Shown: one piece after another, positions 4,597-64,000 of the stretch
How positions within the stretch are numbered: position 1 is the first letter of the stretch
Layout: each line of letters opens with the position of its first letter
Assembly (NCBI GenBank): GCA_963744095.1
Contig: CAVUSH010000003.1
Coordinates: forward strand, 90,821-154,820
From: an uncultured Chloroflexia bacterium
GTDB taxonomy: Bacteria > Chloroflexota > Limnocylindria > Limnocylindrales > CSP1-4
Direction: 5' to 3'
Length of the DNA: 64,000 nt
The notes under the pieces: generated by a model
Seen by the model: the letters and a program-made list of their open reading frames with translations, nothing else
The model's database searches: none
Told to the model about the DNA's origin: nothing
Made by a program: the position numbers and the translations under genes

Positions 4597-4609
4597 CCCC
4601 GTCGCCTGC

Positions 4610-4668
4610 CTGACGGCTCCGCTCTCGCCCCCGGCGGTTCGTGCTCGCCCCCGGCGATTCGCCGTCAG
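4610..4668. terminator. structured convergent intergenic region between GT2 and ribF: inverted repeat CTGACGGC/GCCGTCAG enclosing two 13-18 nt direct repeats (CTCGCCCCCGGCG)
   Basis: Seen directly at 4610-4617 / 4661-4668 with repeats at 4623-4635 and 4644-4656, between the convergent stop codons at 4596 and 4665. Confidence 0.35.
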
Positions 4669-5474: not shown

Positions 5475-6452
5475 GGAGCGCCTCGCCGTCGAAGGCCACT
5501 GCTTCCCGCTCGAGCAGCACCTTGTCCGTGACCAGGCGGCCGCCGTCCGCCACCCGGGCGATCGCGGCGAGGGAGCCGTCGGGGGCCAGGAGGCGGACCG
5601 CCCGCCGGACGTGATCCCCTCCCCCGCGGCTCCGAGGCGCTCGACGCGCCCGGTCCAGCCGCCGTGTGCCACCACCCGCAGCTCCGCGGCGGCGAGCGCC
5701 ACGGCGGGCAGGTCCTCGAGGCCGGCACCGGCGGGCAGGAGAAGGCCGACGAGCCGTTCGGCGGCCGCCGCGGCCCGGACCTCGTCCAGCGGCCGGGCGT
5801 CGGCCAGGGTGAAGGGACCGGACGCCGTGCGCCGGAGCGCCCCCAGGTAGGCGGCAGCTCCCACGGCCGCACCCAGGTCGCGGGCCAGGGCCCGGATGTA
5901 GGTGCCCGCAGAGCAGGCGACGTCCACCACGGCGATCGGGTGCTCCGGGTCGGAGTCGTCCCAGCGGACCAGGACCAGCTCGTGGAAGGTCACGGTGCGG
6001 GGCTTGAGCTCGGGCGTCTCGCCGCGGCGCGCGAGGGCGTAGGCCCGGCGCCCACCCACCTTGCGGGCCGAGAACGCGGGCGGGCGCTGCTCGTGCACTC
6101 CCTCGAACGCCGCGAGAGCGAACGCCACGGCCTCGCGGCTCGGTGGCGCCCCCTCGGCGGGCGTGATCTCCCCCTCGAGATCGTCGGTCGTGGAGCTCCC
6201 CCCGAAGACGACGGTGGCGCGGTAGGCCTTGCGCGCGCCGAGGTGGAACTCCACGACCCGCGTCCCGAGGCCCAGGTAGAGGGGCAGGACTCCCGACGCA
6301 AACGGGTCCAGCGTGCCGCCATGCCCGATCTTCCGCGTTCCGGCGAGACGTCGGACCAGCGCCACGACGTCGTGCGACGTGGGGCCGATGGGCTTGTCGA
6401 CCACGAGGATCCCGTCGACGCGGGCCTCCACGCGCGCGCTCCCCGCGGTCAT
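5467..6452 (-). CDS. truB: tRNA pseudouridine(55) synthase TruB, apparently frameshifted (-1) in a G-run near 5611-5630
   Basis: The catalytic domain ILVVDKPIGPTSHDVV...GHGGTLDPFASG is in the frame of ORF 4665..6575 from the ATG at 6452. The C-terminal PUA-like part RAVRLLAPDGSLAAIARVADGGRLVTDKVLL is in the frame of ORF 5467..6573 and ends at 5467. The two frames join at GCCGCGGGGGAGGGGATCAC. Confidence 0.7.
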
Positions 6453-7474
6453 CGCACGACGGCCCTGGCCAGGCGTTCCGCGACGGGCAGCACGGCCGCC
6501 CGGGCCTCGCCGAGCGGCAGGGGCAGCGAGGCGCCGGCCGCCCGCGGATGCCCGCCACCCCCCCACGTTGCACACAGGACCGTAGCGTCCACGCCGCCCG
6601 GCTTCGTTCGGACGGACAGGCGCGTCTCGGCGTCCTTCTCCTTCAGGAGGAGGGCGACCTCGGCGGTCTCCGACTGGGCCAGGATGTCGATGATCCCCTC
6701 GGAATGCTCCGACCGCGCGCCGGTCGCCACCAGGTCGGCGAGCTCCATCACCGAGGCGACCACGAGCCCGTCGGCATGGCGTTCGAGGCGGGCCAGCACG
6801 CGGCCGAACAGCGCGAGCTGGGCGTCCGGCTTCGTGCGGTAGAGGCGCCGGCTGATGTCGGAGAGCGGCGCCCCGGCCTCGACGAGGGCGGCCGCGACGC
6901 GCAGCGTCCGGGGCGTCGCATTCGGGTGGGCGAACGTGGCGGTATCCATCACGATGCCCGCCATCAGGGACGCGGCCAGGTCCCCCTCGCCGGCCGTGAG
7001 CGGGATCCCGAGGCGGACCGCAAGCAGGGCCACCATCTCGCAGGTGGCGGCGGCGTCCGGGTCGATCCAGGCCAGGTCGCCGGCACGGTCATTGCTGGCG
7101 TGGTGGTCGATCGTCAGGAGGGGCGCGGCGGCGAAGAGCTCGGCGTTGCGCTCGCGGATGGGGCCGGCGCGCGAGAGGTCCCCGCAGTCACAGAGGACCA
7201 CGAGGTCGTACGCCACGCCGGGCTCGGGGTCGGTGCGCACCCGGGCGATCCCCGGGAGGAACGCGTAGAGCGCGGGGGCGCCGTCGCTCACGGCGACGGT
7301 GGCGCGTCCTCCGCGAGCCTCGACCAGCAGGGCGACCGCCAGCGCCGCGCCCAGCGCGTCGGCGTCGGGGCTCTCGTGTCCGACGGCCAGGACCGAGCGC
7401 GCCACTCGCAGCCGCTCGACGACCGCATCGGGGACGGTCGCGGCGAGAACCGCGAGGTCGGACCCGGCGATCAT
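6449..7474 (-). CDS. nrnA: bifunctional oligoribonuclease / pAp phosphatase NrnA (DHH-DHHA1 family)
   Basis: 341 aa from MIAGSDLAVL, with a DHH motif (TIDHHASN) and a GGGH C-terminal motif. The upstream part of ORF 6449..8152 is out-of-frame rbfA sequence. Confidence 0.85.
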   Translation of the reverse strand: MIAGSDLAVLAATVPDAVVERLRVARSVLAVGHESPDADALGAALAVALLVEARGGRATVAVSDGAPALYAFLPGIARVRTDPEPGVAYDLVVLCDCGDLSRAGPIRERNAELFAAAPLLTIDHHASNDRAGDLAWIDPDAAATCEMVALLAVRLGIPLTAGEGDLAASLMAGIVMDTATFAHPNATPRTLRVAAALVEAGAPLSDISRRLYRTKPDAQLALFGRVLARLERHADGLVVASVMELADLVATGARSEHSEGIIDILAQSETAEVALLLKEKDAETRLSVRTKPGGVDATVLCATWGGGGHPRAAGASLPLPLGEARAAVLPVAERLARAVVR

Positions 7475-51620: not shown

Positions 51621-54600
51621 CTAGGACGCGTCATCGCGGCGGCGGATGGCGATCGCGGCCTCGGCGCCACCGAGGACGACGGTCGCGCGCGGCCACCCGT
51701 CCGGCAGGGGTCCCTCGGCGACGGCGTCGGCGAGGGTCTCGGCGGCCACGGCCGGCAGGTGCGGGCGCACCCCGGCGACCCCGTCGGGCAGCGCAACGAC
51801 GACGTCGATCCGGTCGTCCAGCTCCAGCCCGACGTCACGGCGCAGGTCCTGGATTGCCCGCTGCAGCTCCCGCGCATCGCCCTCGGCCCGCAGCGCGTCC
51901 GTCAGCTCCGTGTCGATCACGATCACGAGCCCGTCATCGTGCGCGACGGCCGTGCCGGGACGCGGAGCGGCGATGATCTCCACCTCGTCGGGTGCGAGCA
52001 CGACGCCACCGAGAGCCACCGATCCGTCCGTGAGGATCTCGAACCGTCCGGCGCGCGCGGCAGCCATCACCGCGGGGATGGCGGGGCCCAGCCTCTTCCC
52101 GATCTTCGGGAGGAGCGGCTTCACGCGCCGCTCGACGAGCGTGGACTCGTCGCCGATCCGGACGACCTCCCGGACGTTGACCTCTTCGGCGACCAGGTCC
52201 AGGAGCGCGTCCAGCTCGGCGTGGTCGCCGCCGGGGATCGCGATCCAGAGCCGGGCGAGGGGCTGCCGGGTGCGGATGCCCGCCTGCGCCCGCAGCGTGC
52301 GGGCCAGCTCCACCGCGCGCTGGACCGTCTCCATGGCGCTCTCGAGGGCGGCATCGCGGCCGTCGGCGAGCTCCGCCGACGGCCAGCGCGTCAGGTGCAC
52401 GCTGTCGGGTGCCGCCAATCCGCCGCGCACCACCAGGTTCTGGTGGATCGCTTCCGAGAGGAACGGCAGGAGCGGGGCCGCGACCCGCACGAGCCCGACA
52501 AGGACGCCGTGGAGCGTCGCGAACGCCGCCGCCCGGTCCGCCCCGTCGCCGGCCCGCGAGAACCGGCGCCGGGTCCGGCGCAGGTACCAGGTCGACAGCT
52601 CGTCGATGAAGCGCGCAACCGCCGCCGCCGCCGCATCGGGGTCGTAGTCGTGGAGGCGGTCCTCCACGCGCGCAGCAAGGCCGGCGAGGCGGGAGAGGAT
52701 CCAGCGGTCGAGCGTGGGACGCTCGGCGATCGGCGGCGCCGGGTCGTCGGGACGCCAGCCCGCCAGCCGGGCGTAGGTGACGAAGAAGCTGTAGACATTC
52801 CAGAGGACCAACAGCTCGCGTCGCGCCTCGTCCGCGGCATGCCACCCGAAGAGGATGTTGTCCTGGGGCCGGGCGTTGGCGTACATCCAGCGCATCACGT
52901 CGACGCCCATCCGCTCGGCGGCCTCGTCGAACTCGATGGCGTTGCCCCAGCTCTTGTGCATGGGACGGCCGTCCTCGCCGAAGAGGGTCGCGTACCCGAA
53001 GATCGCCCGGAAGGGCGCTTCCCGGCGCAGCACGGTGCTCATGGCGAGCATCGAGTAGAACCAGTTTCGGAACTGCCCGGGGAAGCTCTCCGTGATGAAG
53101 TCCGCCGGGAACCAGTCCGCCCAGTGAGCGGGGTCCTCGCGATAGTGGAGCGTCGAGAAGGGCACGATCCCGGCGTCGAGCCACGGGTTCCCCACCTCGG
53201 GGATTCGGGCCACGGGCGCGCCGCAGCCCGGGCAGGCGATCAGGACCGCGTCCACGTGCGGGCGGTGGGGCGTATGCCCCTCCAGGGCCTCCCAGCCGGC
53301 GACGGCACGCTCGCGGAGCTCGTCGCGACCCCCGACCACGTCGAAGGTGCCGCACGCCGCGCAGTCGTAGATGGGGAGGGCGAGGCCCCAGTACCGCTTC
53401 TTGCTGATCATCCAGTCGTGCATGTTGAGGAGCCAGTCGAGCTCGCGCTCGTACCCGAACGCCGGGATCCACCGGATCTTGTCCACGACCTCCATGATCT
53501 GGTAGCGGAGGCTGGCCTCGATCTCGGCCGGCGTCAGCTCCTCGCGCGGCCGGTCGTATACCGGACCCATCCTGATGTACCACTCGTCGACCAGGCGGAA
53601 GACGAGCGCGGTGCCGCACCGCCAGCAGTGCGGGTAGCGGTGGACGTACGGCTCCAGGCGGTAGAAGAAGCCGTGGTGCCGCAGGTGCTCCACCACCGGG
53701 TCGGCAGAGTCGCGGACGTCGCGGCCGGCCAGGAATCCGAAGCCGTCGATGAAGATCCCGCCCTCGTCCAGGGGCGCCAGGATCGGCAGGCCCAGCGCCG
53801 CACCGAGGGCGAAGTCGTCGGCGCCGCACCCCGGCGCGATGTGGACGATGCCCGTCCCTTCCTCCTCGCCGACCTGGTCCCAGGCGACGACGCGGTGCTC
53901 ATATGGGCCCCCGTCGGCTCCACCGCCGGCGAATGCGGTCCGCACCGCCGGCAGCTCGTCGAAGGGACCCCGGTAACGCCAGCCGACAAGGTCGCTCCCG
54001 GCGACCTCGTCGAGCACCTCGAACGGACCCACCAGGGCCTGCCGGAGGGTCCCCCGCCCCAGCCAGTGGACGGCCTCGCCCTGGCGCACCTTGACGTAGC
54101 GCAGGTCCGGGCCGACGGCCGCAGCCACGTTGCTGGTGAGGGTCCAGGGCGTCGTCGTCCAGACGAGGAGCGCCTCCCCCGGCCGGTCGACCAGCGGGAA
54201 GCGCACCGTGAGCCCGGGGTCCGTCCGGTCGGCGTAGCCCTCGGTCATCTCGTGCTGGCTGATCCCGGTGCCGCAGCGAGCGCACCAGGGCATCGTGTCG
54301 TGGCCCTTGTAGAGCCAGCCGCGGCGGTGGCACTCGGCGAGGAACCCCCAGATGAGGTCGTTGTTCTCGTTGCTGAAGGTGAAGTAGGAGCCTCCCAGCT
54401 CCGGCATGCCGAGGCGCCCGACGAGCATCTCCACGGTGTCGGTGACGAGACCCTTCGGCCCCTGGAGCGTCAGGACGCGGGTCGGATCGGCAGCGAGCTG
54501 GTCGCGCAGGCGGCGGAGCTCGTCCGGGTCGTTCCAGTCCATCCAGTAGCCGAGACGGATCGACTGTTCCGTCTGGCGGGCGGCGAAGGTGAGCACGCGC

Positions 54601-54965
54601 TGCTTGCAGAGGCTCACGAACTCGGCGATGCCGTGCTCCTCGATGTCCCGCTTCGAGGTGAAGCCGAGGTCGCGCTCGACGTTGACCTCCACCCACAACC
54701 CCTGGCAGTCGAACCCGTTCTGCCAGCGCTGGTCCTCGCCGAGCATGGCGTGGAAGCGCTGGAAGACGTCCTTGTACGCCCGCCCCCAGGCGTGGTGGAC
54801 GCCCATCGGGTTGTTCGCCGTGATCGGCCCGTCGAGGAAGCTCCAGCGGGGCCCGCCCGCGTTCTGGGCGCGGAGACGCGCGAACGTCCGCCGCTCGCGC
54901 CACAGGGCGAGGATCTCGTGCTCCTGGGCGACGAGGTCGGGCTTGCTGCTGACGGGGTCGAACAT
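51621..54965 (-). CDS. ileS: isoleucine--tRNA ligase (long, type-2/eukaryote-like form, 1114 aa)
   Basis: HHAWGR (HIGH) and KMSKS-like (PMHKSWGN) motifs plus a CP1 editing domain. Its length and C-terminal architecture match type-2 IleS. No T-box leader is recognisable. Confidence 0.9.
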   Translation of the reverse strand: MFDPVSSKPDLVAQEHEILALWRERRTFARLRAQNAGGPRWSFLDGPITANNPMGVHHAWGRAYKDVFQRFHAMLGEDQRWQNGFDCQGLWVEVNVERDLGFTSKRDIEEHGIAEFVSLCKQRVLTFAARQTEQSIRLGYWMDWNDPDELRRLRDQLAADPTRVLTLQGPKGLVTDTVEMLVGRLGMPELGGSYFTFSNENNDLIWGFLAECHRRGWLYKGHDTMPWCARCGTGISQHEMTEGYADRTDPGLTVRFPLVDRPGEALLVWTTTPWTLTSNVAAAVGPDLRYVKVRQGEAVHWLGRGTLRQALVGPFEVLDEVAGSDLVGWRYRGPFDELPAVRTAFAGGGADGGPYEHRVVAWDQVGEEEGTGIVHIAPGCGADDFALGAALGLPILAPLDEGGIFIDGFGFLAGRDVRDSADPVVEHLRHHGFFYRLEPYVHRYPHCWRCGTALVFRLVDEWYIRMGPVYDRPREELTPAEIEASLRYQIMEVVDKIRWIPAFGYERELDWLLNMHDWMISKKRYWGLALPIYDCAACGTFDVVGGRDELRERAVAGWEALEGHTPHRPHVDAVLIACPGCGAPVARIPEVGNPWLDAGIVPFSTLHYREDPAHWADWFPADFITESFPGQFRNWFYSMLAMSTVLRREAPFRAIFGYATLFGEDGRPMHKSWGNAIEFDEAAERMGVDVMRWMYANARPQDNILFGWHAADEARRELLVLWNVYSFFVTYARLAGWRPDDPAPPIAERPTLDRWILSRLAGLAARVEDRLHDYDPDAAAAAVARFIDELSTWYLRRTRRRFSRAGDGADRAAAFATLHGVLVGLVRVAAPLLPFLSEAIHQNLVVRGGLAAPDSVHLTRWPSAELADGRDAALESAMETVQRAVELARTLRAQAGIRTRQPLARLWIAIPGGDHAELDALLDLVAEEVNVREVVRIGDESTLVERRVKPLLPKIGKRLGPAIPAVMAAARAGRFEILTDGSVALGGVVLAPDEVEIIAAPRPGTAVAHDDGLVIVIDTELTDALRAEGDARELQRAIQDLRRDVGLELDDRIDVVVALPDGVAGVRPHLPAVAAETLADAVAEGPLPDGWPRATVVLGGAEAAIAIRRRDDAS

Positions 54966-55083
54966 CGGGCCTCGGCTGGGGATCGTGAACGGCGGGCGGC
55001 GAGCGCCTGCGTCACGCCGTCGCGCCCGCAGGCGTCAGAGCACTCCGGACACGCTTCACGGAGGTTCCTCTATCCTACCCGCG

Positions 55084-56865
55084 ATGACCCGACCGCAGGA
55101 GCCGCGCCGACGCGCCCGCTCCGCCTTCACGGCCGCCTTCCTGTCGCTTCTCTTTCCGGGGCTCGGCCACGCGTACGCGGGCGCCTGGTATCGCGCCCTC
55201 GGCTTCGCAGCCGCGCCGTTCCTCCTCCTCGCCCTGGGCCTGGGCGTCGTCGCCGGCTACCGGCTGGACCTGGTCGGCGTCGTCCTCCAGCCGGCAGTCC
55301 TCGTCTCCATCCTGGTGGGCAACGTCGTCGCGCTCCTCTACCGGGCGATCGCGGCCGTCGATGCCTACCGCGTGGCCCTCTACCTCAATCGCTGGGACGA
55401 AGGCGCCGGGCGGCTCGGCGCGTCGCGGTCCGTCCTGGCCCCGATCTCGGTCGCGGGCCTGCTCGCCGTCCTCCTCGTGATGGGCGGGGCGCACGCGGCC
55501 GTCGCCTACTACGACCTGCAGGCGCTCGACCTGGTCCAGGGCGTCTTCAACCCGAATGACGAGGCGGATCTCACCCCGGATCCGTCCGCGAGCGCCGTCC
55601 CGTCGCCCGACGGGTCACCGGATGCGGCGGAGGCGCCGCTCTCCACGCCGCCCCCGGGCGCCACGGCCGCACCTGCCGGGCCTGCGGCGTCGCCCTGGGA
55701 TGGCACGGGGCGGCTCAACGTCCTCCTGATCGGCTCCGACCGGCGGCCGGGCGAAGGCGCGTACAACACGGACACCCTCATCGTCGCCAGCGTCGACCCG
55801 GGGAGCGGCCAGGTGGCCATGTTCAGCATTCCCCGGGACACGACCGGGATCCCGCTCACCGGTCCGGCGCGCTCCTTCTTCGGCACGACGTGGAACCGCA
55901 AGATCAACGCCCTCTTCCAGCAGGCGCGCGCCCGGCCGGACATCTTCCCCGGCGGCAAGCTGAGCGGCTACCAGGCCTTGAAGGACACGCTCGGCGGCCT
56001 CTACGGCGTCGACATCCAGTACTTCGTCGAGGTCGACTTCGGCGGCTTCACCCAGGTCGTCGATGCGCTGGGCGGGGTCACGGTCAACGTGCAGCTTCCC
56101 GTCGTGGACGACTACTACCCCGGCGACAAGGGGGCCCTCCGCGTCTACATCCCGACCGGCGTCCGGCACATGACCGGTGCCGAGGCGCTCGTCTATGCCC
56201 GCTCGCGGCACGGCTCGACGGACTTCGACCGCGCGGCCCGCCAGCAGCGCGTCCTCCTCTCCCTCCGCCAGCAGGCCGACTTCGCGACCCTCCTGCGACG
56301 CCTTCCCGAGCTGGTGAAGAGCACGAAGAAGGCGGTCAAGACCGACTTCCCCGTCGACAAGCTTCCCCAGCTCATCGACCTCGCCAGCCGGATCGACGCC
56401 GGCAACGTCCGCTCGTACGTCTTCACGCCGCCGCGCTACGGGACCGAGGGCACGGTCAACGGCTTCTACGTGCTCGAGGCGAACGTGCCGGCGATCCGCG
56501 CAGCGGCCGCCAACGCGTTCACCTTCGATCCACGCGAGGAATCCGAGCGCCAGGCGATCGCCGAGGAAGGCGCCCGCGTCTGGGTCGTCACGAGCACGGG
56601 CGAGGCAGGCCGGGCGGCCGATCTCGCCGGCTACCTCGAGTACCACGGGTTCGCGGCGTCGGCGCCGCGCGGGCGAAACCCCGACGCCGTCGAGCCGACG
56701 ACCGTCGTGGTCGCCTACAACGGGGCCGAGACCCGCTTCCCGGCATCGATCGCCTGGCTCGAGACCCGCTTCAAGCTCACGGTGACGCCGCTGACGGACG
56801 CCAAGGCCGGCACCGACATCGTGGTCGTCCAGGGCACGAACACGGCGAAGCTCAGGGCCCCCTGA
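55084..56865 (+). CDS. LytR-CpsA-Psr (LCP) family cell-envelope phosphotransferase, membrane anchored
   Basis: N-terminal TM helices, then NVLLIGSDRR...ADTLIVASV...R...D LCP catalytic-domain motifs. It is divergent from ileS. Confidence 0.85.
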   Translation: MTRPQEPRRRARSAFTAAFLSLLFPGLGHAYAGAWYRALGFAAAPFLLLALGLGVVAGYRLDLVGVVLQPAVLVSILVGNVVALLYRAIAAVDAYRVALYLNRWDEGAGRLGASRSVLAPISVAGLLAVLLVMGGAHAAVAYYDLQALDLVQGVFNPNDEADLTPDPSASAVPSPDGSPDAAEAPLSTPPPGATAAPAGPAASPWDGTGRLNVLLIGSDRRPGEGAYNTDTLIVASVDPGSGQVAMFSIPRDTTGIPLTGPARSFFGTTWNRKINALFQQARARPDIFPGGKLSGYQALKDTLGGLYGVDIQYFVEVDFGGFTQVVDALGGVTVNVQLPVVDDYYPGDKGALRVYIPTGVRHMTGAEALVYARSRHGSTDFDRAARQQRVLLSLRQQADFATLLRRLPELVKSTKKAVKTDFPVDKLPQLIDLASRIDAGNVRSYVFTPPRYGTEGTVNGFYVLEANVPAIRAAAANAFTFDPREESERQAIAEEGARVWVVTSTGEAGRAADLAGYLEYHGFAASAPRGRNPDAVEPTTVVVAYNGAETRFPASIAWLETRFKLTVTPLTDAKAGTDIVVVQGTNTAKLRAP

Positions 56866-56913
56866 CGAGCGCGGCCGGGTGGGGGCGCGCTGATCGCCAG
56901 CCGGGGCGCCTGC

Positions 56914-57894
56914 TCAGCCGCCGTGGACCGGCGTCACCCAGTGCGCGTACGCCGGCACGTTGCCACGGACGATGTCGAAGTAGCGGTCCTTGATCCGCCG
57001 GGTGATCGGGCCCACGGTTCCGGTGCCGAGCGAGCGACGATCGACCTCGACGATCGGGCTGATCTGGGCGCCGGTGCCGCAGAAGAAGGCCTCGTCGGCG
57101 ACGTAGATCTCGGAGCGGTCGATGGAGCGCTCCACGACCCGCAGGCCCAGCTCGGCGCAGATCTCGATGATTCCGGCCCGGGTGATCCCCTCGAGGATGT
57201 CGTCCGTCACCGGCGGGGTGAGGAGCACCCCGTCGCGGACGACGAAGATGTTCTCGGCGGAGCCCTCGGAGATGTGGCCGTCCTCGGTGAGCACGAGGGC
57301 CTCGTCGTACCCGTTGAGCAGCGCCTCGGACTTGCTGAAGGCGGGGTTGACGTAGCTGCCCACGATCTTGGCCCGCGACGGGATGGCGGCGTCGCCAGTC
57401 CGGCGCCAGGAGACGGTGGCGATCTTCACCCCGACCGTGGTGTCGACGTAGTCGCCGAAGGGGAGGGCGAGGATGTAGTAGCGGTGCTCCAGCCCGTGGA
57501 GCTTCACGCCGATCGCCTGGGTGCTCTTGTAGAACGATGGCCGGACATAGGCGTCCTCGCGGAAGGCGTTGCGCCGGAGGACCTCGAGGGCCTCGCCCGT
57601 CAGCTGATCGACCGACGGCAGGTCCTGCATCAGGAGGATCCGGGCGGAGTCCCGGATCCGCTCCATGTGCTCACGCACCTTGAGGGCGTAGAGCTGGCCC
57701 TGCTCCGCGTTCCAGTACGCCCGGATCCCCTCGAACACGGCCGTTCCGTACATGAAGGCGTGGGTCATGATGCTGACGTTGGCCTCGCCGAGGGGAACGT
57801 AGCGGCCTTCGAACAGGCACGTCAGCGACGCGGTGTCGAGGGGGGCACCGGCCGCGCGCGGCGCGCGCCCGGCGGCGGGCTTCTGGGTGAGCAT
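56914..57894 (-). CDS. ilvE: branched-chain amino acid aminotransferase (class IV)
   Basis: FEGIRAY...K...ENIFVV...EAFFCGTGAQISPI motifs. AAGGGAG SD. A TATACT hexamer lies ~60 nt upstream. Confidence 0.85.
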   Translation of the reverse strand: MLTQKPAAGRAPRAAGAPLDTASLTCLFEGRYVPLGEANVSIMTHAFMYGTAVFEGIRAYWNAEQGQLYALKVREHMERIRDSARILLMQDLPSVDQLTGEALEVLRRNAFREDAYVRPSFYKSTQAIGVKLHGLEHRYYILALPFGDYVDTTVGVKIATVSWRRTGDAAIPSRAKIVGSYVNPAFSKSEALLNGYDEALVLTEDGHISEGSAENIFVVRDGVLLTPPVTDDILEGITRAGIIEICAELGLRVVERSIDRSEIYVADEAFFCGTGAQISPIVEVDRRSLGTGTVGPITRRIKDRYFDIVRGNVPAYAHWVTPVHGG

Positions 57895-58008
57895 CCGGTC
57901 GGCTCCCTTCGCGTGGTCTGGCGGGTCGGCGAATCCCGACGGCAGGCGACCCGAGTATAGACCGGCCGCCTGGCCGGATCGGGCCGGGCGTCCGCCGGTC
58001 CGTGTCCC

Positions 58009-59058
58009 TCAGGCCGCGCCGGCCATCGTGGCGAGGACGAGGCCGAGGTAGAGGACGTAGAAGGCGCCCCCGACCATCAGCCCGCGACCGGTGAGCCGCC
58101 CGCGCCGAAGTGCCGGCAGGACGACGGCCGCGAGCGACGCGGCGGCAATGCCCGCGGACAGGAAGGCGAGCAGGCTCCCCTCCTCGATCGTCCACGCCTG
58201 GGGGGCAAAGACCAGGGCCACGCTGGGGGGGATCGCGCCCTGGAAGACCATCGCCCCGGTGATGTTGCCGAGGGCGAGGTTGTCCTTGCCCTGGCGGACC
58301 CAGATGACGCTGTTGAACTTCTCGGGGAGCTCTGTCGCGATCGGAGCGATCACGAGCGCGAGGAGCGTCCCGTCGATGCCGAAGGCGCCGGCCACGCGCT
58401 CCACGGCGCCGACGAAGAACACCGCCCCGACGATGATGCAGGCGAGAGCGACGACGACCTGGAGCCCCACGACCCAGAGATGTGGAGGCCACTCGGGCTC
58501 GCGTCGCGCGGTTGGGCTCAGGTGGCGCAGGCGCAGCGGCTCGGGGTCCTCGAGGTCCTCGGCCCGGGCCACCCCGAGGTGAGACCGGACGTAGCGCGCG
58601 TACAGGAGGGCCAGGCCGATCGCGACCACCCACGACAGTGAGCGCAGGTCGTCCGGGAGGAAGGCCGCCCCGATGGCGATGGCATAGACGACGAAGAACG
58701 CCTGCGCATCCCGGGACAGCACCGCGAGGTCGACGTGCGCCCGCACGCCGGTCGGCCGTCGGCGGCGGAAGGCGAGGACGGCAAGGCCGGTCACGAACAT
58801 GGCGAGCGTGGCGAGCATGAACGGCGCGCCGAGGATCGCCCCCACCCCGATCGCGTCCCCCGCCGGCCCGGTCGCGAAGACGATCGCGATGATCGGGATC
58901 ATCGTCTCCGGCAGCGCGGTGCCGACCGCCGCGAGCACGCTCCCGACGGCACCCTCGGCGAGGTCGAAGTGCTTCCCCAGCCACTCGATGCCGTTCGTGA
59001 ACAGCTCGGCGCCGATCAGGATGACGCCCAGGGCGACGATGAGGATCAGGCCGTCCAC
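58009..59058 (-). CDS. Ca2+/cation antiporter (CaCA, Na+/Ca2+ exchanger) family membrane protein
   Basis: Two alpha-repeat regions (GAELFTNGIEWLG; GNITGAMVFQ) in ~10 TM helices. Confidence 0.8.
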   Translation of the reverse strand: MDGLILIVALGVILIGAELFTNGIEWLGKHFDLAEGAVGSVLAAVGTALPETMIPIIAIVFATGPAGDAIGVGAILGAPFMLATLAMFVTGLAVLAFRRRRPTGVRAHVDLAVLSRDAQAFFVVYAIAIGAAFLPDDLRSLSWVVAIGLALLYARYVRSHLGVARAEDLEDPEPLRLRHLSPTARREPEWPPHLWVVGLQVVVALACIIVGAVFFVGAVERVAGAFGIDGTLLALVIAPIATELPEKFNSVIWVRQGKDNLALGNITGAMVFQGAIPPSVALVFAPQAWTIEEGSLLAFLSAGIAAASLAAVVLPALRRGRLTGRGLMVGGAFYVLYLGLVLATMAGAA

Positions 59059-59061
59059 GGA

Positions 59062-59409
59062 TCAACCCGCCGCCAGGCCGGCGACGACGGCGAGGGCGAT
59101 CACGACGAGGACCGCCACGCCGAGGGCGGCCAGGCGCCGCTCCCCTGCCCGTCCGAAGCCCCAGGTGGACGCCGCCACGCGCAGGATCGGGGTCGCGATC
59201 GTCGCCATGAGCCCCAGCCAGAGGAAGGCCGTCGGCTCGAGGGCGAGGAGGTCGGCTGGCAGCGACGCCAGGTCGAGGGGTGGCCAGTCCGGCGTCAGCG
59301 GCGAGGTGCCCGCGGCGATCATCAGGAGGCTCCCGATGGCAAGGAGAGCGACGGCCGCGCGCGTCCCCACCGTCAGGATCCGGGCGATCCGCGTCTCCAC
59401 GCTGCTCAT
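59062..59409 (-). CDS. DUF1634 family small membrane protein
   Basis: 115 aa with three predicted TM helices. It is encoded immediately downstream of the TauE/SafE gene, the usual pairing. Confidence 0.6.
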   Translation of the reverse strand: MSSVETRIARILTVGTRAAVALLAIGSLLMIAAGTSPLTPDWPPLDLASLPADLLALEPTAFLWLGLMATIATPILRVAASTWGFGRAGERRLAALGVAVLVVIALAVVAGLAAG

Positions 59410-60257
59410 CCGAGTGCCCGCAGGGCCATCTCGGCGGCCGTCAGGGACAGGACGCCGACGAAGAGGAGGCGCAGGATCCGGACGTCGATCCGGGCTGCCA
59501 GGCGTGAGCCGACCAGCGCCCCCGCGAAGACGCCGACGGCGGTCGGGCCGGCGACGTATGGGTCGATCCCGCCCCGGACCAGGTAGACGACCGCCGAGGC
59601 GGCGGCGGTCACCCCGATCATGAGGTTGCTGGTGGCGGCGGCCGCCTTGAGGGGCACGCCCATGGCGAGGTGCATGAGCGGCACCTTCACGATGCCGCCC
59701 CCGACGCCGAGCAGCGCGGACAGGACCCCTGCGCCCAGGCTGCCGCCGGCGCCGGCAACCAGGCGTCGCGGGCGGTATCCGGGCCCGGCCACGTCGTCCG
59801 CGAGAGTTCGCGCCGGCGGGCTCGAATCCGGCCCCGCGTCCCGTGCGGCCCCCGCCCCGTCGACCGCCGCGTCGGGAGAGGGCGGCGCAACCGGGGCCCG
59901 GCTCCCGCGCGACATGGAGAACGCCGTGTAGGCGAGGAGCGCCGCGAAGAGGCCGGCAAGCACCCGCTCGGACAGGATGAACGCGACCAGCCCGCCCACG
60001 AGCGCGCCCGTGGCCGTGAAGACCTCGAGGAACATGCCGAGTCGCAGGTTCGCCGTGTGGCGCTCGAGGTAGACGCCCGCCGCGGCGCTGCTCGTCACGA
60101 TCACGCAGACGAGGCTGACCCCGACCGCTTCGCGGAACGGGACGCCGAAGCCCACGGTGAGCAGCGGGACGATGAGGATCCCGCCCCCGAGCCCGAGGAG
60201 CGAGCCGAAGACGCCGGCCCCGAAGCCGCCGGCGGCGAGGAGGAGCGCGACGATCAC
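59406..60257 (-). CDS. TSUP (TauE/SafE) family anion exporter
   Basis: Two internal repeats with GxGGG motifs (LLGLGGGILIVPLL; LLGVGGGIVKVPLM). Confidence 0.8.
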   Translation of the reverse strand: MIVALLLAAGGFGAGVFGSLLGLGGGILIVPLLTVGFGVPFREAVGVSLVCVIVTSSAAAGVYLERHTANLRLGMFLEVFTATGALVGGLVAFILSERVLAGLFAALLAYTAFSMSRGSRAPVAPPSPDAAVDGAGAARDAGPDSSPPARTLADDVAGPGYRPRRLVAGAGGSLGAGVLSALLGVGGGIVKVPLMHLAMGVPLKAAAATSNLMIGVTAAASAVVYLVRGGIDPYVAGPTAVGVFAGALVGSRLAARIDVRILRLLFVGVLSLTAAEMALRALG

Positions 60258-60291
60258 CCTGCGCTGGGCCGGCGGAGGGACCGGCGCGGCG

Positions 60292-60558
60292 TCAGGGCCG
60301 CAGGTGCTGCGGCGCGTACGGCAGCAACGCCACGGTCCGGGCTCGCTTCAGGGCGACCGCCAGCTCCCGCTGGTGGGCCGCACAGGTGCCGGTCTTGCGG
60401 CGCGGCTCGATCTTGGCCCGCTCGGAGAGATAGCGGCGCAGGCGGCTGACCTCCTTGTAGTCGATCTGGGGCGTCTTGTCGGCGCAGAAGGCGCAGACCT
60501 TGCGGCGCCGGCGATCGCGGTAGTAGTCGTCGCGCTTCTTCGATCGTGCAGGGGGCAT
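60292..60558 (-). CDS. rpsR: 30S ribosomal protein S18
   Basis: [36 protein letters not shown] motif. Confidence 0.9.
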
Positions 60559-60585
60559 GGGAGGAAGGGCTCCTTGACGTGGTCG

Positions 60586-61047
60586 TCAGAACGGGAGGTC
60601 GTCGAGGTCGGACGGGACGTCCTCGGCGGGAGCGTCGCGGCGAACCGGCGACGACGCAGGGCGCGGGTCGGCGGGGAATGACGGGGCGGAGGCGCCCTCG
60701 CCCTCCTCGCGCCCACCCCGCTCGAGACTGATGACGTTGTCGGCGGTGATCTCGAGGGCCGTCCGCTTCTGGCCGTCGCGGCCCTCGAACTCGCGGGTGC
60801 GGAAGCGGCCCTCGACGAAGACCTTGTTCCCCTTGCGGAACTGCTCCGCGGCTCGCTCGCCGCGCTCGCCCCAGATGGTGACCCGGTACCAGTCGGTCCC
60901 CTGGTCCACCCATTCGCCGGATTGGGCGTCCTTTCCCCGGTGGGAGACGGCAACGCTGAACTCGGTCACCGGGCGCCCCGAGGGCGTATAGCGCATCTCG
61001 GGATCGCGCCCGAGGTTCCCGATGATCATCAGCTTGGCAAAGGCCAT
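60586..61047 (-). CDS. ssb: single-stranded DNA-binding protein
   Basis: OB-fold MAFAKLMIIGNLGRDPEMRYTPSGRPVTEFSVAV... with the acidic C-terminal tail DLDDLPF. The upstream part of ORF 60586..62661 is spurious. Confidence 0.9.
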   Translation of the reverse strand: MAFAKLMIIGNLGRDPEMRYTPSGRPVTEFSVAVSHRGKDAQSGEWVDQGTDWYRVTIWGERGERAAEQFRKGNKVFVEGRFRTREFEGRDGQKRTALEITADNVISLERGGREEGEGASAPSFPADPRPASSPVRRDAPAEDVPSDLDDLPF

Positions 61048-61060
61048 CGGATCGTCCCCC

Positions 61061-61480
61061 TCAGTCGGTGGCCGCCGGGGCGGCTTCACTCTCGGATTCG
61101 TCGATCCGCTCGCCCTGCAGCTCGTCCTCGACCTCGTCGCCGAGCTCGGGGACAAGGTCGCCGTCATCTCCCTTGTCGCGCGCGGCGCGGACGGGGCGGT
61201 CGACGCGAACGACGAGGTGCCGGAGCACCTCCTCGGTGATGAGGAGGGTGCGCTCCAGGTCGACGATCGACTCGGGGGGAGCATCGAAGTGGAGGATGTG
61301 GTACGAGCCTTCGCGGTACCGGTCGATCTGGTACGCGAGGCGGCGGCGGCCCCAGGGGGCCGTCTTGACGATCTGGCCGCCCGTCTCCGTGACGTGGCGG
61401 GTCGTCTTCTCCAGGACCGCCGAGATTCGGTCCTCCGGCGCGTCCGGCCGAAGGACGAGCATGAGCTCATAGCGGCGCAT
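61061..61480 (-). CDS. rpsF: 30S ribosomal protein S6 with acidic C-terminal tail
   Basis: MRRYELMLVLRPD...WGRRRLAYQI motif. The ATG at 61480 has an AGGAAGGAG SD. Confidence 0.9.
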   Translation of the reverse strand: MRRYELMLVLRPDAPEDRISAVLEKTTRHVTETGGQIVKTAPWGRRRLAYQIDRYREGSYHILHFDAPPESIVDLERTLLITEEVLRHLVVRVDRPVRAARDKGDDGDLVPELGDEVEDELQGERIDESESEAAPAATD

Positions 61481-61569
61481 GGCCGTGTCCGCTCCTTCCT
61501 GTGGGGTATGCCCCGCTCGGCGCGGCCGGAACCCGGCCCGTCCCCCGGCGGAGCAGAAAGGACCGCGGC

Positions 61570-61578
61570 AGCATACCA
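61570..61578 (-). promoter_or_regulatory. candidate extended -10 (TGGTATGCT) for the rpsF-ssb-rpsR operon
   Basis: Minus-strand TGGTATGCT lies ~90 nt upstream of the rpsF ATG. The leader contains the partially self-complementary GCATACC/GGTATGC segments. Confidence 0.3.
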
Positions 61579-61704
61579 CGGGGTGCCGGCCGGCCCGGCG
61601 AGAGGCCCGCAGCTCGGCCCCGGCGGGACGCTCCGGGCGGGGGGGCCGCACCGCGTGTATCCTTCGCCCCGATCAGAGCACGGAACCAGGGGACGCGCAG
61701 CACC

Positions 61705-62928
61705 GTGACGACCACGTCCATCCTTCTCCTCTCGGCGGTCGCCGAGGCTGCCGAGCCGCTGGCGGCCGCCCTGCGCGCGGCAGGCCACGAGGTCACCACC
61801 GTGGCCGACGCGGACGAGGCGATCCGGCGCGCCGGCGAGTTCACCCTCGTCACGATCGACGCCGTCGCGCCGCCGCGGAACGGCACGGAGGTCTGCACCG
61901 AGATCCGGCGCAACCCCTCGTTGACGGCGATTCCGGTCCTTTGCGTCTCCCAGAAGTACGACGTGGAGGAGCGTGTCCGCTTCCTGGAGGCGGGCGCCGA
62001 CGACGTGATTGCCCGGCCCTTCGACCCACGTGAGCTCGAGGCGCGCGTGGAGGGGCTCCTCATCCGCTTCAGGCGCTCTCGCGACCATGCGCCCCAGACG
62101 GGCGGGGAGACCCCGCTGGCCGGCCCCCGGCACCTGATCGCGTGCTTCAGCCCCAAGGGAGGCGTCGGGACCACCACGATCGCGGTCAACATCGCGATGG
62201 CCCTGGCGGAGCTGGCGCCCGCCCAGGTTGCCATCCTGGATCTCGACGTCGACTTCGGCCAGGTGGCCACTCACGTCAACCTGAAGCCGCGCCTGACCGT
62301 GGCGGACCTCGCCCAGGACGACGGGGGGATGCGGGACCAGGAGCTGCTCCGGACCTACGCCGAGATGGTCGAGCCCGGGCTGCATGTGATCGCGGCCCCG
62401 GCGACGCCCGAGACGGGGCGGCTGATCACCGGCGCCCACGTCGACCAGATCCTCACGACGGCTCTGCTCGGGTACGGCACCCTCGTCGTCGACGCCGGCT
62501 CCACGCTGGACGAGCGGTCGCTCGCGGTCCTGGACCGGGCCGAAGCCGTCATCGTGCCCATCGTCCCCGAGATCGGGGCCCTGAAGGCGCTGCACAGCTT
62601 CCTCGAATACCTGACCGAGCAGGGCACCGTGCCCGCCAAATCCACGTTCGTCCTGAACCACCTCTTCGCCCGCGACATGCTCTCCATGAGACAGATCGAG
62701 AACTCCATCGCCGCAAAGGTCGATGCCGAGCTGCCGTACGACCCGGGCCTCTACCTGAAGGCCGTCAACGAGGGCGTGCCTCTCCTGCGGGGCGCGCCCG
62801 CGTCCGCACCCGCTCGCGCCCTCGCGCGCCTCGCGACGCTCACGGCCGGTGCCGACGTGGTGGGCGACGCCGGCCGCGAGGCGAAACGTGGCGTCGGCAT
62901 CCTCGGAGGATTGCGCCGGCGCGGCTGA
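61705..62928 (+). CDS. TadZ/CpaE-like protein: N-terminal pseudo-receiver domain + MinD/ParA-type ATPase domain with degenerate Walker A
   Basis: GTG start. The REC-like domain lacks the N-terminal acidic pair (ILLLSAVAE). The ATPase domain has FSPKGGVGTTTIAVNIA, in which the second Lys of the deviant Walker A KGGxGK[ST] is replaced by Thr. A D-x-D Walker B-like motif is also present. Confidence 0.7.
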   Translation: MTTTSILLLSAVAEAAEPLAAALRAAGHEVTTVADADEAIRRAGEFTLVTIDAVAPPRNGTEVCTEIRRNPSLTAIPVLCVSQKYDVEERVRFLEAGADDVIARPFDPRELEARVEGLLIRFRRSRDHAPQTGGETPLAGPRHLIACFSPKGGVGTTTIAVNIAMALAELAPAQVAILDLDVDFGQVATHVNLKPRLTVADLAQDDGGMRDQELLRTYAEMVEPGLHVIAAPATPETGRLITGAHVDQILTTALLGYGTLVVDAGSTLDERSLAVLDRAEAVIVPIVPEIGALKALHSFLEYLTEQGTVPAKSTFVLNHLFARDMLSMRQIENSIAAKVDAELPYDPGLYLKAVNEGVPLLRGAPASAPARALARLATLTAGADVVGDAGREAKRGVGILGGLRRRG

Positions 62929-62932
62929 GAGG

Positions 62933-63322
62933 TCAGCCGGTCACCTTCACCTGGCCGGCCTGGACGATCGAGATGACGCCGCCCCACGCGCACGCGCACG
63001 TCGAGGTGCTCGTCAGGACCGGGACGCCACCCGCGCTGACCTTCGGGGACCCGGGTGTCCACGGCGCGGTGATGACCGGGACGCACGGTTGGGGGGTCAG
63101 GACGCCGGACGCGGCCGAGGTGGCCGCCGCGACCTGCGGGTTCGATGGCGTCGTGCACATGCCGAATGGCGAAACGTTGGCCATCGGGGCGAAGTCAACG
63201 ACCCGCGCCAGGAGCTGGCCTCCCACCTGGAGAATCGGGCCGGACGGGATCACCGCGAGCGTGGATGGCGCGACCCCGAACGTGCAGGTCACCTGGGCCC
63301 CGTTGACGACGAGGTCCGGCAT
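62933..63322 (-). CDS. DUF4280 (PAAR-like) domain protein, standalone, ~129 aa
   Basis: MPDLVVNGAQVTCTFGVAPSTLAVIP...PMANVSPFGMCTTPSNPQVAAATSAASGVLTPQPCVPVITAPWTPGS...STCACAWGGVISIVQAGQ matches the DUF4280 consensus. The ATG at 63322 has a GGGGAGG SD. An alternative GTG lies at 63349. Confidence 0.7.
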   Translation of the reverse strand: MPDLVVNGAQVTCTFGVAPSTLAVIPSGPILQVGGQLLARVVDFAPMANVSPFGMCTTPSNPQVAAATSAASGVLTPQPCVPVITAPWTPGSPKVSAGGVPVLTSTSTCACAWGGVISIVQAGQVKVTG

Positions 63323-63530
63323 GCGCGGCCTCCCCTGCTCCGCCGGCACGGCTCGTGCGGCTGGGCCGAGTGTCGCATGCCTCGCGCTTCCCGAACGGGC
63401 ACGAGTTGCCGCCTCGGGGGGCGAGCCCTGCGCGGTCGGCGGAACGGCCCCCGAATGGAGTGGATCACCCCGGGTCGCCCGTCCGTCCCCATCACGCCGA
63501 GGCGGAGCGGGCTTGCCGGGCGGGCCGGGG

Positions 63531-64000
63531 CTACTTCACCTGCTGCTTCGAAACCGCGGTGGCGTACTGGTTGATCTGCCCGGCCGTCACCTTGTCGATG
63601 AGCGTCCAGCCCCACGCGCCCGTCGTCCAGAACTTCGTGCCGGGGCACTTCGGAACCCGGCTGGAGAGGACCCGCGTCTGCAAGTCCTTGCCGGTCGCGG
63701 CGACGACCACGCGAACCGTCACCTTGTCCTGGGATCGAACGACCTCGCCGACCTCTCCGCCCTCCGTCTTGTAGAGACCGCACGAGCCCACCTTCTTCTC
63801 GTCATGGCGAGCGCACACGACGAGCTGAATCGGGCTCGGCCATCGCCAGCCGCCCGCCCGGAAGTCCTCGTTGATGGCCACGTCGTAGGCCAGCCACGCG
63901 TTGTTCATGTCGACGACGACGAGGGGATGAACCTTGCCGGCATACGGCGCGGCTCCCGGCACGGGCGTCCCGCGGTAGCAGGCATCCCACAGCTCGATCT
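63531..64000 (-). CDS. C-terminal portion of a larger hypothetical protein (ORF continues past the window end)
   Basis: The frame is open from 64000 down to the stop at 63531 (…IELWDACYRGTPVPGAAPYAGKVHPLVVVDMNNAWLAYDVAINEDF…KCPGTKFWTTGAWGWTLIDK…). The ORF track start at 63962 is only an internal GTG. No recognisable family. Confidence 0.5.
   Translation of the reverse strand, partial: IELWDACYRGTPVPGAAPYAGKVHPLVVVDMNNAWLAYDVAINEDFRAGGWRWPSPIQLVVCARHDEKKVGSCGLYKTEGGEVGEVVRSQDKVTVRVVVAATGKDLQTRVLSSRVPKCPGTKFWTTGAWGWTLIDKVTAGQINQYATAVSKQQVK

What the first reader, a model, noticed from the sequence alone, without database searches (positions are those of the whole stretch)
62933..64000. Standalone DUF4280 (PAAR-like) protein downstream of a large unknown ORF at the window edge - possible toxin-delivery or contractile-system accessory locus
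The ~129-aa protein matches the PAAR-like DUF4280 consensus very closely (VNGAxVTCTFG…PFGMC…NP.VAAAT…PCVPV…PW.PGS…CAWGG.I…GQ). Such proteins usually cap VgrG-like spikes in T6SS or extracellular contractile injection systems, or prefix polymorphic toxins. Here it is standalone, in an otherwise pure housekeeping neighbourhood. It lies directly downstream, on the same strand and ~208 nt away, of the C-terminal end of a larger unfamiliar protein that runs off the window. No other T6SS or eCIS gene is visible, so the context is unexplained.
Basis: partly seen in the sequence, partly recalled or inferred. Interest (0 to 1): 0.65.

Follow-up and report, generated by a model that had tools for sequence, protein, structure and literature searches.

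The report
Orphan PAAR-like spike-tip gene in Chloroflexota
The gene really does encode a small PAAR-like (DUF4280) "spike-tip" protein, but it is a lone, vertically inherited gene beside ribosomal-protein genes in a soil Chloroflexota lineage, and neither it nor the small lipoprotein gene upstream forms a toxin-delivery locus.

Summary
Window 62933-63322 (-) encodes a 129-aa protein that matches Pfam DUF4280 end to end (E=4.9e-32). It has four invariant cysteines, and its AlphaFold model matches solved PAAR and PAAR-like spike tips.

The upstream ORF is not large. It is the C-terminal 155 aa of a ~228-aa predicted lipoprotein with no Pfam, PHROG or significant PDB fold match. It is not a conserved partner of the DUF4280 gene.

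The whole 64-kb window is housekeeping. A 91-96% identical relative extends 3.3 kb past the window edge and adds only membrane proteins.

Relatives change the picture. Chloroflexota DUF4280 proteins (63-98% identical, one at 55%) fall in one clade in a rough NJ tree and are under purifying selection (dN/dS about 0.12-0.27 within the syntenic group). They are always solitary, in five different housekeeping contexts. The commonest context matches the window: convergent with a receiver-ParA ATPase next to rpsF-ssb-rpsR.

A gene-specific upstream motif, CCCGnnCGGGAA-N10-TGCGACACT, travels with the gene. Relatives in other phyla (50-57% identical) mostly sit beside VgrG/T6SS or eCIS genes.

Best reading: a bare structural spike tip for a tail-like machine encoded elsewhere. 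Whether these genomes have such a machine could not be tested. It is an ordinary family member in an unusual, stable orphan arrangement.

The parts
62933..63322 (-). DUF4280 / PAAR-like protein CDS: 129 aa plus stop codon, bare domain with no N- or C-terminal extension and no signal peptide.
   Evidence: Pfam PF14107 E=4.9e-32, full-length match. Weak match to the PAAR-like part of NCBIfam IglG. C13, C56, C80 and C111 are invariant in 56 homologues. AF2 model has pLDDT 83.6; Foldseek top hits are 9jg8_B (PAAR-like domain on VgrG, E=1e-6), T4 gp5.4, c1882 PAAR and Pvc10.
63329..63335 (-). Shine-Dalgarno sequence GGGGAGG, 6 nt before ATG 63322. It lies inside a conserved GGAGCAGGGGAGG block.
   Evidence: Read. 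The block is conserved in 11 related loci.
63369..63399 (-). Conserved gene-specific upstream motif CCCGTTCGGGAA-N10-TGCGACACT: a short palindrome plus an extended -10-like TGnGACACT. The promoter/operator role is inferred.
   Evidence: Single match in the window; 0.04 expected by chance. Exact in every syntenic locus. All 9 exact matches in the metagenome collection lie just upstream of a clade DUF4280 gene. Degenerate versions occur in other genomic contexts. There is no covariation for an RNA fold and no Rfam hit.
63323..63530 (-). 208-nt intergenic region between the lipoprotein gene and the DUF4280 gene.
   Evidence: Only the motif and the RBS block are conserved. No sigma-70 consensus or intrinsic terminator was found.
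63531..64000 (-). C-terminal 155 codons plus stop of a ~228-aa predicted lipoprotein of unknown function. It is an unrelated neighbour, not part of the system.
   Evidence: 70 homologues of 155-268 aa, no Pfam domain. Full-length homologues have a signal peptide, an L-A-G-C lipobox and a Pro/Thr linker. Four conserved Cys. AF2 model pLDDT 90.4 with no significant PDB fold match. GC is 66.6% against 73.5% for the window.
61501..62928 (+). Receiver domain + ParA/MinD-type ATPase gene, convergent with DUF4280 (stop codons 4 nt apart). It is the conserved syntenic neighbour; the true start is probably about 70 codons further in.
   Evidence: Pfam Response_reg, ParA, AAA_31 and CbiA. Homologues are 404 aa. 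Synteny is conserved in L002-L007, L038, L041, L042, L048, L051, L052, L054 and L055.
60292..61651 (-). rpsF-ssb-rpsR operon. It marks the conserved chromosomal position of the DUF4280 gene.
   Evidence: tblastn synteny. Pfam annotation of L002-L005 and L041.

Best explanation
The gene encodes a bare 129-aa PAAR-like (DUF4280) protein, a small beta-cone held together by a four-cysteine metal site. In characterised relatives this cone sits on the blunt end of a trimeric VgrG/gp5-type beta-helical spike and sharpens it.

Here it is a single-gene unit with its own conserved promoter/operator-like motif and a strong RBS. It carries no toxin extension and has no effector or immunity gene behind it.

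It belongs to a clade of Chloroflexota orphan DUF4280 genes that has been inherited vertically at the rpsF-ssb-rpsR locus and kept under purifying selection.

The most likely role is structural: the tip of a phage-tail-like spike (eCIS, cytoplasmic CIS or tailocin) encoded elsewhere in the genome.

Shown: family, fold, cysteine conservation, orphan status, synteny, selection and motif specificity. Inferred: metal binding, promoter function, and the existence of a distant spike partner.
For: Family and fold:
- Full-length DUF4280 match.
- Four invariant cysteines, matching the four that the IglG papers describe as conserved in DUF4280 and contributing to metal coordination in IglG (PMC5349215).
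- The AF2 model matches PAAR-like and PAAR tips solved on VgrG/gp5.

Link to spikes in other phyla:
- Relatives at 50-57% identity, all 122-130 aa, mostly sit directly next to VgrG (Phage_GPD + Phage_base_V + Gp5_trimer_C), TssK, or eCIS Pvc16_N genes. This level of cross-phylum conservation is consistent with a retained spike-capping function (inference).

Orphan clade:
- Chloroflexota members group together in an NJ tree without bootstrap support; dN/dS is 0.12-0.27 for syntenic relatives at 68-90% identity, and higher for three other pairs (0.38-0.42).
- The synteny with receiver-ParA and rpsF-ssb-rpsR is conserved at 55-98% protein identity.

Independent expression:
- The gene-specific upstream motif was found only upstream of this gene: 9 of 9 metagenome hits, and one hit per syntenic locus.

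Precedent:
- About 38% of PAAR genes lack a vgrG within 20 genes. PAAR and vgrG copy numbers correlate genome-wide with r = 0.81 (PMC8651086).
- Class IId eCIS regions exist in some filamentous Chloroflexi (PMC10020575).
Against: - No spike, sheath, tube or baseplate gene was found in the 64-kb window or in the 3.3 kb beyond it.
- None was found within about 10 kb, where the contig allows, of the gene in any of five distinct Chloroflexota contexts.
- A structural tip that stays unlinked from its machine across a whole clade and behaves like a core gene is unusual, because in eCIS loci the tip is normally encoded in the cluster.
- No phage or PHROG relatives were found.
- Whether any of these genomes carries a VgrG-like gene is unknown.
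Confidence: 0.55

Rival explanations
1. CIS-independent role. In this Chloroflexota lineage the PAAR-like cone has been co-opted as a core-like small Cys4 metal-binding protein with a different partner or function, and no contractile machine exists in these genomes.
For: - The gene is always solitary, in five unrelated housekeeping contexts.
- It is vertically inherited at a ribosomal-protein locus and conserved about as well as rpsF: 86/74/73% for DUF4280 against 91/79/80% for rpsF in L006/L007/L003.
- It has its own conserved cis-motif, which was not found upstream of any other gene.
- It has no phage relatives.
- Earlier authors also noted DUF4280 proteins in Gram-positive bacteria without identifiable T6SS or eCIS genes (PMC5349215; PMC8651086).
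Against: - It is 50-57% identical to proteins that are physically next to VgrG, T6SS or eCIS genes.
- The model keeps the complete PAAR-like fold.
- No alternative partner is conserved in the neighbourhood.
- Absence of a CIS in these genomes has not been shown.
Confidence: 0.25
2. DUF4280 and the upstream ORF form a local toxin-delivery or contractile-system accessory locus, with the upstream ORF acting as spike, Rhs protein or toxin.
For: The two genes share a strand and lie 208 nt apart. The upstream protein is uncharacterised.
Against: - The upstream protein is a ~228-aa lipoprotein with a signal peptide and lipobox, and no similarity to spikes, Rhs proteins or toxins.
- The pair occurs only in the near-identical relative L002. 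Its homologue P0001 has no DUF4280 neighbour, and syntenic DUF4280 loci have other genes upstream.
- The DUF4280 gene has its own conserved motif inside the intergenic gap.
- The lipoprotein fragment has lower GC than the window, 66.6% against 73.5%.
Confidence: 0.03
3. Functional coupling with the convergent receiver-ParA/MinD-type ATPase, for example a positioning ATPase for a cell-envelope machine that uses the cone.
For: The pair is conserved tail-to-tail in all context-A loci. In the window the stop codons are 4 nt apart.
Against: - The genes are convergent, so they are not co-transcribed.
- Clade members in the four other contexts (L008/L043/L056, L009, L040, L058) have no such neighbour.
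- The adjacency is explained by shared vertical synteny with rpsF-ssb-rpsR.
Confidence: 0.05
4. Decaying remnant of a lost contractile system or prophage tail.
For: Orphan status. No CIS genes nearby.
Against: - The ORF is intact at 129-130 aa in more than 120 clusters.
- dN/dS is 0.12-0.27 within the syntenic group.
- The cysteines are invariant.
- The RBS and the upstream motif are conserved.
- GC3 is 0.93, like the neighbouring genes.
Confidence: 0.02

Closest known systems
Francisella IglG and the DUF4280 'PAAR-like' family (Rigard et al. 2016; Lays et al. 2016, PMC5014421 and PMC5349215)
   Same: Same Pfam domain and four conserved cysteines. IglG's cysteines contribute to metal coordination. 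The predicted fold is the same PAAR-like cone. NCBIfam IglG aligns to residues 7-127.
   Different: IglG has an N-terminal amphipathic helix that binds IglF, and it is encoded inside the FPI T6SS island. This protein is a bare domain with no extension (IglG model positions 1-57 are unmatched, 40 bits against a cut-off of 200) and no T6SS neighbours.
PAAR-like domain of Bacteroides BtpeA bound to VgrG (PDB 9jg8/9jg9)
   Same: Best structural match (Foldseek E=1e-6, TM 0.67, 29% identity) and best PDB sequence match (E=3e-4, residues 4-129).
   Different: BtpeA is a 608-aa effector in which the cone is the N-terminal prefix of a toxin, in a T6SS locus. Here the cone is the whole protein.
Standalone DUF4280 proteins next to VgrG/T6SS in Myxococcota and Proteobacteria, and next to Pvc16-type eCIS genes in Lachnospiraceae (loci L010-L037)
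   Same: 50-57% identical and nearly the same length (122-130 aa), with the same cysteines.
   Different: Most of these are immediately adjacent to VgrG, TssK or eCIS genes. The Chloroflexota clade never is.
'PAAR_H2' DUF4280 proteins of Firmicutes (Zhang et al. 2021, PMC8651086)
   Same: DUF4280 in monoderm lineages without recognisable T6SS or eCIS genes nearby. [quoted passage not shown]
   Different: 70.8% of PAAR_H2 genes still have a Phage_GPD/vgrG neighbour. Here even that is missing.
Canonical PAAR tips: T4 gp5.4, E. coli c1882, PVC Pvc10
   Same: Same overall cone fold (Foldseek rank 4-8, probability 0.21-0.99).
   Different: No PAAR-motif Pfam hit. These proteins use a His3Cys zinc site, whereas DUF4280 has four cysteines (PMC5349215).

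Membership tests
DUF4280 / PAAR-like (PF14107) | Significant full-length match to the family HMM | tested here: met
   E=4.9e-32, 111.2 bits against a cut-off of 26.3, profile positions 1-109 of 109.
DUF4280 / PAAR-like (PF14107) | Four highly conserved cysteines (the metal ligands in IglG) | tested here: met
   C13, C56, C80 and C111 are invariant in 56 sequences. Metal binding itself cannot be tested here.
DUF4280 / PAAR-like (PF14107) | PAAR-like conical beta fold | tested here: met
   AF2 pLDDT 83.6, pTM 0.70. Foldseek hits: 9jg8_B E=1e-6, T4 gp5.4, c1882, Pvc10.
DUF4280 / PAAR-like (PF14107) | Binds the tip of a VgrG/gp5-type trimeric spike | not testable with these tools
   This needs the rest of the genome and biochemistry. 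No spike gene was found in the 64-kb window or in the flanks of the relatives.
T6SS or eCIS gene cluster / accessory locus | VgrG, sheath, tube, baseplate or T6SS membrane-complex genes in the neighbourhood | tested here: not met
   Pfam scans of 30 window ORFs found none. Pfam annotation up to about 10 kb either side of DUF4280, where the contig allows, found none in 13 Chloroflexota loci (L002-L005, L008, L009, L040-L043, L056-L058). The flanks of L006, L007, L038 and L047-L055 were checked only by tblastn synteny.
PAAR-toxin / polymorphic toxin with PAAR-like prefix | N- or C-terminal toxin extension, or an effector-immunity pair immediately downstream | tested here: not met
   129 aa is the domain alone. 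The stop codon lies 4 nt from the stop of a convergent receiver-ParA gene.
Canonical PAAR (PF05488 PAAR_motif) | PAAR repeat motifs or an HMM hit | tested here: not met
   Only DUF4280 was reported at E<=0.1.
Francisella IglG subfamily (NF041248) | Score above the curated cut-off, including the N-terminal helical extension | tested here: not met
   40.4 bits against a cut-off of 200. Only model positions 58-170 align.
Bacterial lipoprotein (upstream ORF) | Signal peptide ending in a lipobox L-[AV]-[AG]-C | tested here: met
   The N-terminus is outside the window. It is seen in the 91-96% identical relative L002 (VLAGCGG) and in most full-length homologues.

The most novel reading that the evidence does not exclude
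The soil Chloroflexota that carry this clade have no VgrG-like spike or contractile machine at all. In that case the PAAR-like cone would be a core, independently regulated protein that either caps an undescribed injection or puncturing structure of these organisms or has a function unrelated to contractile systems.
Probability: 0.22. Interest if true: 0.75.

Novelty: new member of a known kind. Interest (0 to 1): 0.35.

Why it matters
PAAR-like proteins are used as markers for contractile injection systems and their toxins. This case shows that a DUF4280 hit alone does not mark a toxin-delivery locus.

In one Chloroflexota lineage the gene is a stable, purifying-selected singleton at a ribosomal-protein locus, with its own conserved cis-element.

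If the same genomes turn out to carry a spike elsewhere, this is simply an unlinked structural tip. If they do not, the clade would be a concrete, testable entry point to the old question of what PAAR-like proteins do in bacteria without a known T6SS or eCIS (raised in PMC5349215 and PMC8651086).

Tried and rejected
- **Extending the window.** Exact look-ups of the window's DUF4280 protein (129-aa and 138-aa forms, and the 100%-identical P0071) found no contig. The window could be extended only through the 91-96% identical relative L002.
- **Regulon hunt.** I scanned the metagenome collection for the upstream motif, hoping to find co-regulated partner genes. All 9 hits were upstream of the same gene, so no partner emerged.
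- **RNA element in the 208-nt gap.** There was no Rfam hit at E<=1. RNAalifold gave a weak energy (-6.9 kcal/mol) with no compensatory pairs. Rejected in favour of a DNA-level promoter/operator.
- **Consensus promoter and terminator scan.** It found nothing, which says little at 73.5% GC.
- **Phage origin.** There was no tblastn hit in 50,697 phage records and no PHROG hit. Only three IMG/VR contigs matched, at 43-50% identity and outside the clade.
- **Fold of the lipoprotein.** The model is confident, but the best PDB match has E=0.03 and TM below 0.4, to small lipoproteins such as LptE and CsgG. No assignment was made.
- **My own gene caller.** The GC3-based caller picks antisense ORFs in this high-GC DNA. 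I used it only to choose ORFs for Pfam scans.
- **Unused searches.** I did not use the third large protein search or the representative search. No available query would have placed a spike protein from these particular genomes among the listed hits.

Full report
**1. What is at the coordinates**

The minus strand of window 62933-63349 carries an ORF. From ATG 63322 it encodes a 129-aa protein. A GGGGAGG Shine-Dalgarno sequence lies 6 nt upstream of that ATG (sequence).

The protein matches Pfam DUF4280 (PF14107) over the whole model: E=4.9e-32, 111 bits against a cut-off of 26.3. No canonical PAAR-motif family was hit. NCBIfam gives only a sub-threshold match to the PAAR-like part of Francisella IglG, 40 bits against a cut-off of 200, covering model positions 58-170. 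So this is a bare domain without IglG's N-terminal helix.

In an alignment with 55 homologues, C13, C56, C80 and C111 are invariant. The IglG papers describe four conserved cysteines in DUF4280 that contribute to metal coordination in IglG (PMC5349215, read).

An AlphaFold2 model built from that alignment has pLDDT 83.6 and pTM 0.70. Foldseek against the PDB returns:
- first, the PAAR-like domain of BtpeA sitting on a VgrG spike (9jg8_B, E=1e-6, TM 0.67);
- then a Klebsiella phage baseplate chain (9f4b), T4 gp5.4, E. coli c1882 PAAR, a phage P1 baseplate tip, phiKZ gp163.1 and PVC Pvc10.

The same 9jg8 chain is the only meaningful PDB sequence hit.

**2. The upstream ORF**

The same-strand ORF that ends at 63531 and runs off the window has 70 homologues of 155-268 aa, mostly 210-235 aa, with no Pfam domain. 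Full-length members start with a basic, hydrophobic signal peptide ending in a lipobox (for example VLAGCGG). A Pro/Thr-rich linker follows, then a ~155-aa domain with four conserved cysteines.

The same N-terminus is readable in locus L002. L002 aligns to window 53646-64000 at 91-96% DNA identity and extends 3.3 kb beyond the window. The gene is therefore a ~228-aa predicted lipoprotein, not a large protein.

Its C-terminal domain models confidently (pLDDT 90.4). It has no significant fold match: the best hit has E=0.03 and TM below 0.4, to small lipoproteins. There are no PHROG or NCBIfam hits.

Beyond it, L002 has two membrane proteins, one weakly DUF998. The closest full-length homologue, P0001 (82% identical), sits in an unrelated context with no DUF4280 nearby. 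The lipoprotein fragment has 66.6% GC against 73.5% for the window. It is an unrelated, variable neighbour.

**3. The window**

Pfam scans of 30 ORFs spread over the window returned housekeeping families (or, for one ORF, no hit): PNPase, TruB/FAD synthetase, IF-2, IspG, RseP, CdsA, UppS, S2, TrmD, RimM, Ffh, FtsY, SMC, RNase III, NusB-family, PlsX, YceD, RecG, FakA, Asp23, Dtd, Rpe, RlmN, Fmt, Def and PriA. One scanned ORF is a DUF3352 protein of unknown function and another a family-2 glycosyltransferase.

The last 10 kb corresponds to IleRS, LytR, aminotransferase IV, Na/Ca exchanger, TauE, and S18-SSB-S6, as annotated in the syntenic loci. No contractile-system or toxin family appears.

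**4. What relatives show**

The DUF4280 protein has more than 2,100 database relatives. The best 120 are all 106-145 aa, mostly 129-130 aa, and 63-100% identical. Those that carry a taxon name are called Chloroflexota. Genome-collection loci are labelled Anaerolineaceae, Chloroflexia or Chloroflexota MAGs.

In loci L002-L007, L038, L041, L042, L048, L051, L052, L054 and L055 the gene occupies the same position as in the window. It is convergent with a receiver-domain + ParA/MinD-type ATPase, which is followed by rpsF-ssb-rpsR-TauE where the contig reaches that far.

The gene upstream of DUF4280 differs between genomes:
- lipoprotein (window and L002);
- HTH_31 protein (L003-L005);
- unknown small ORFs (L041).

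Other clade members lie in four further contexts:
- after a dihydropyrimidine-dehydrogenase-like gene, with or without an ACT-domain gene (L008, L043, L056/L057);
- near dnaE and terB (L009);
- between a luciferase-like oxidoreductase and a VapBC-like pair, beside haem-biosynthesis genes (L040);
- between purH and a SARP/BTAD regulator (L058).

None of these loci, most of them annotated for about 10 kb on each side, contains a VgrG, sheath, tube, baseplate or T6SS gene.

By contrast, relatives at 50-57% identity from Polyangiales, other Myxococcota, Burkholderiales, Acetobacterales and others lie immediately next to VgrG (Phage_GPD + Phage_base_V + Gp5_trimer_C) or TssK. Relatives from Lachnospiraceae and a Bacillota MAG lie next to Pvc16_N eCIS genes. 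Two Kitasatospora relatives lack a VgrG neighbour; one is convergent with an Rhs toxin gene.

In a neighbour-joining tree without bootstrap support the Chloroflexota orphans group together, apart from all of these. Pairwise dN/dS against the window gene is 0.12-0.27 for syntenic relatives at 68-90% identity. It is 0.38-0.42 for L002 (too few changes to be informative), L047 and the context-D member L040. The L009 value (1.65) is a misalignment artefact, because the sequences differ by an indel. Amino-acid conservation is comparable to ribosomal protein S6 in the same loci.

**5. A gene-specific cis-element**

I aligned the upstream regions of the syntenic loci. They show an invariant CCCGnnCGGGAA-N10-TGCGACACT and a conserved GGAGCAGGGGAGG ribosome-binding block, within otherwise unalignable sequence.

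- In the window the motif lies at 63369-63399 (-), 46 nt before the ATG. It occurs once, against 0.04 expected by chance.
- It is present once, in the same place, in every syntenic locus.
- All nine exact matches in the metagenome collection are immediately upstream of a clade DUF4280 gene.
- Degenerate versions, for example GTGCGACACT in L043, accompany the gene in other contexts.
- There is no Rfam match and no covariation for an RNA fold.

I read the motif as an extended -10-like promoter element (TGnGACACT) with a short palindromic operator. That reading is an inference. It does show that the gene is an independent, conserved expression unit, not part of the lipoprotein's operon.

**6. Interpretation**

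The following points are established:
- The protein is a genuine PAAR-like DUF4280 cone.
- It is a bare structural domain, not a toxin prefix.
- It is not linked to the upstream ORF.
- It belongs to a vertically inherited, purifying-selected orphan clade of Chloroflexota.

The function is inferred. Close sequence similarity to spike-associated homologues favours a tip for a tail-like spike encoded elsewhere (confidence about 0.55). About 38% of PAAR genes lack a nearby vgrG, while PAAR and vgrG copy numbers correlate genome-wide (PMC8651086). Class IId eCIS regions occur in some filamentous Chloroflexi (PMC10020575).

The main rival is a CIS-independent role (about 0.25). It rests on the gene's core-like behaviour and on the complete absence of linked CIS genes in five contexts. 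This echoes earlier speculation about DUF4280 in Gram-positive bacteria.

I could not test whether these genomes contain a VgrG-like gene. That whole-genome scan is the decisive missing step.

**7. Verdict**

The family assignment is right. The 'toxin-delivery accessory locus with a large upstream ORF' reading is not supported.

This is a new member of a known family, in a stable orphan arrangement that I did not find described in the DUF4280/PAAR papers I read. Interest is moderate to low unless the genomes prove to lack any contractile machine.

Noticed in passing
window 710-3289 (-): The 859-aa PNPase ORF has a Pfam RNase_T (DEDD 3'-5' exonuclease, PF00929) match, E=4.9e-26, at residues 253-405. 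It sits between the first RNase_PH/RNase_PH_C core and the second RNase_PH domain, where I recall (not checked here) PNPase normally has its all-alpha domain. This looks like an unusual domain insertion.
   Followed up: no
window 4665-6575 (-): A single 636-aa ORF carries TruB_N and TruB_C_2 (residues 75-283) and FAD_syn (residues 384-532). It is either a truB-ribF fusion or two genes read through in one frame. No flavokinase domain was reported.
   Followed up: no
L052:1458-1920 (JGI contig Ga0316616_100078702): In this syntenic locus the DUF4280 protein is only 55% identical to the window's, while the neighbouring receiver-ParA protein is 77% identical and the upstream motif is exact. This points to accelerated divergence or in-place replacement of the cone.
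   Followed up: partly
window 63531-64000 (-) and L002:1-3530: The segment just upstream of DUF4280 is a variable islet. It holds a lipoprotein plus two DUF998-like membrane proteins here, HTH_31 and DUF1232 proteins in L003-L005, and lysyl-oxidase-like and unknown ORFs in L041. The lipoprotein fragment has lower GC, 66.6% against 73.5% for the window.
   Followed up: partly
window 62926-62935: The stop codons of the convergent receiver-ParA gene (TGA 62926-62928) and the DUF4280 gene (62933-62935) are only 4 nt apart, with no terminator-like hairpin. In L003-L005 the gap is 64 nt.
   Followed up: no
L039:10001-14684 (Kitasatospora mediocidica): An actinobacterial DUF4280 relative (about 54% identical) lies convergent with a 1,328-aa Rhs protein (DUF6531, RHS repeats, C-terminal DUF3990) and a 103-aa ORF. 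No VgrG is nearby. The related Kitasatospora locus L020 has a different neighbour.
   Followed up: partly
L002:3015-3801 and 4401-5875: In this near-identical relative the lipoprotein and receiver-ParA genes are broken by frameshifts: an 86-aa and a 124-aa gene were called. These are probably assembly errors rather than pseudogenes, because the window has both reading frames intact.
   Followed up: partly
L058:10310-14589 (JGI Ga0500616_0002445): In this context the orphan DUF4280 is followed on the same strand by an 882-aa SARP/BTAD-type regulator. A 259-aa protein with weak Zn-ribbon and NADase_transloc hits lies 3.7 kb away.
   Followed up: no
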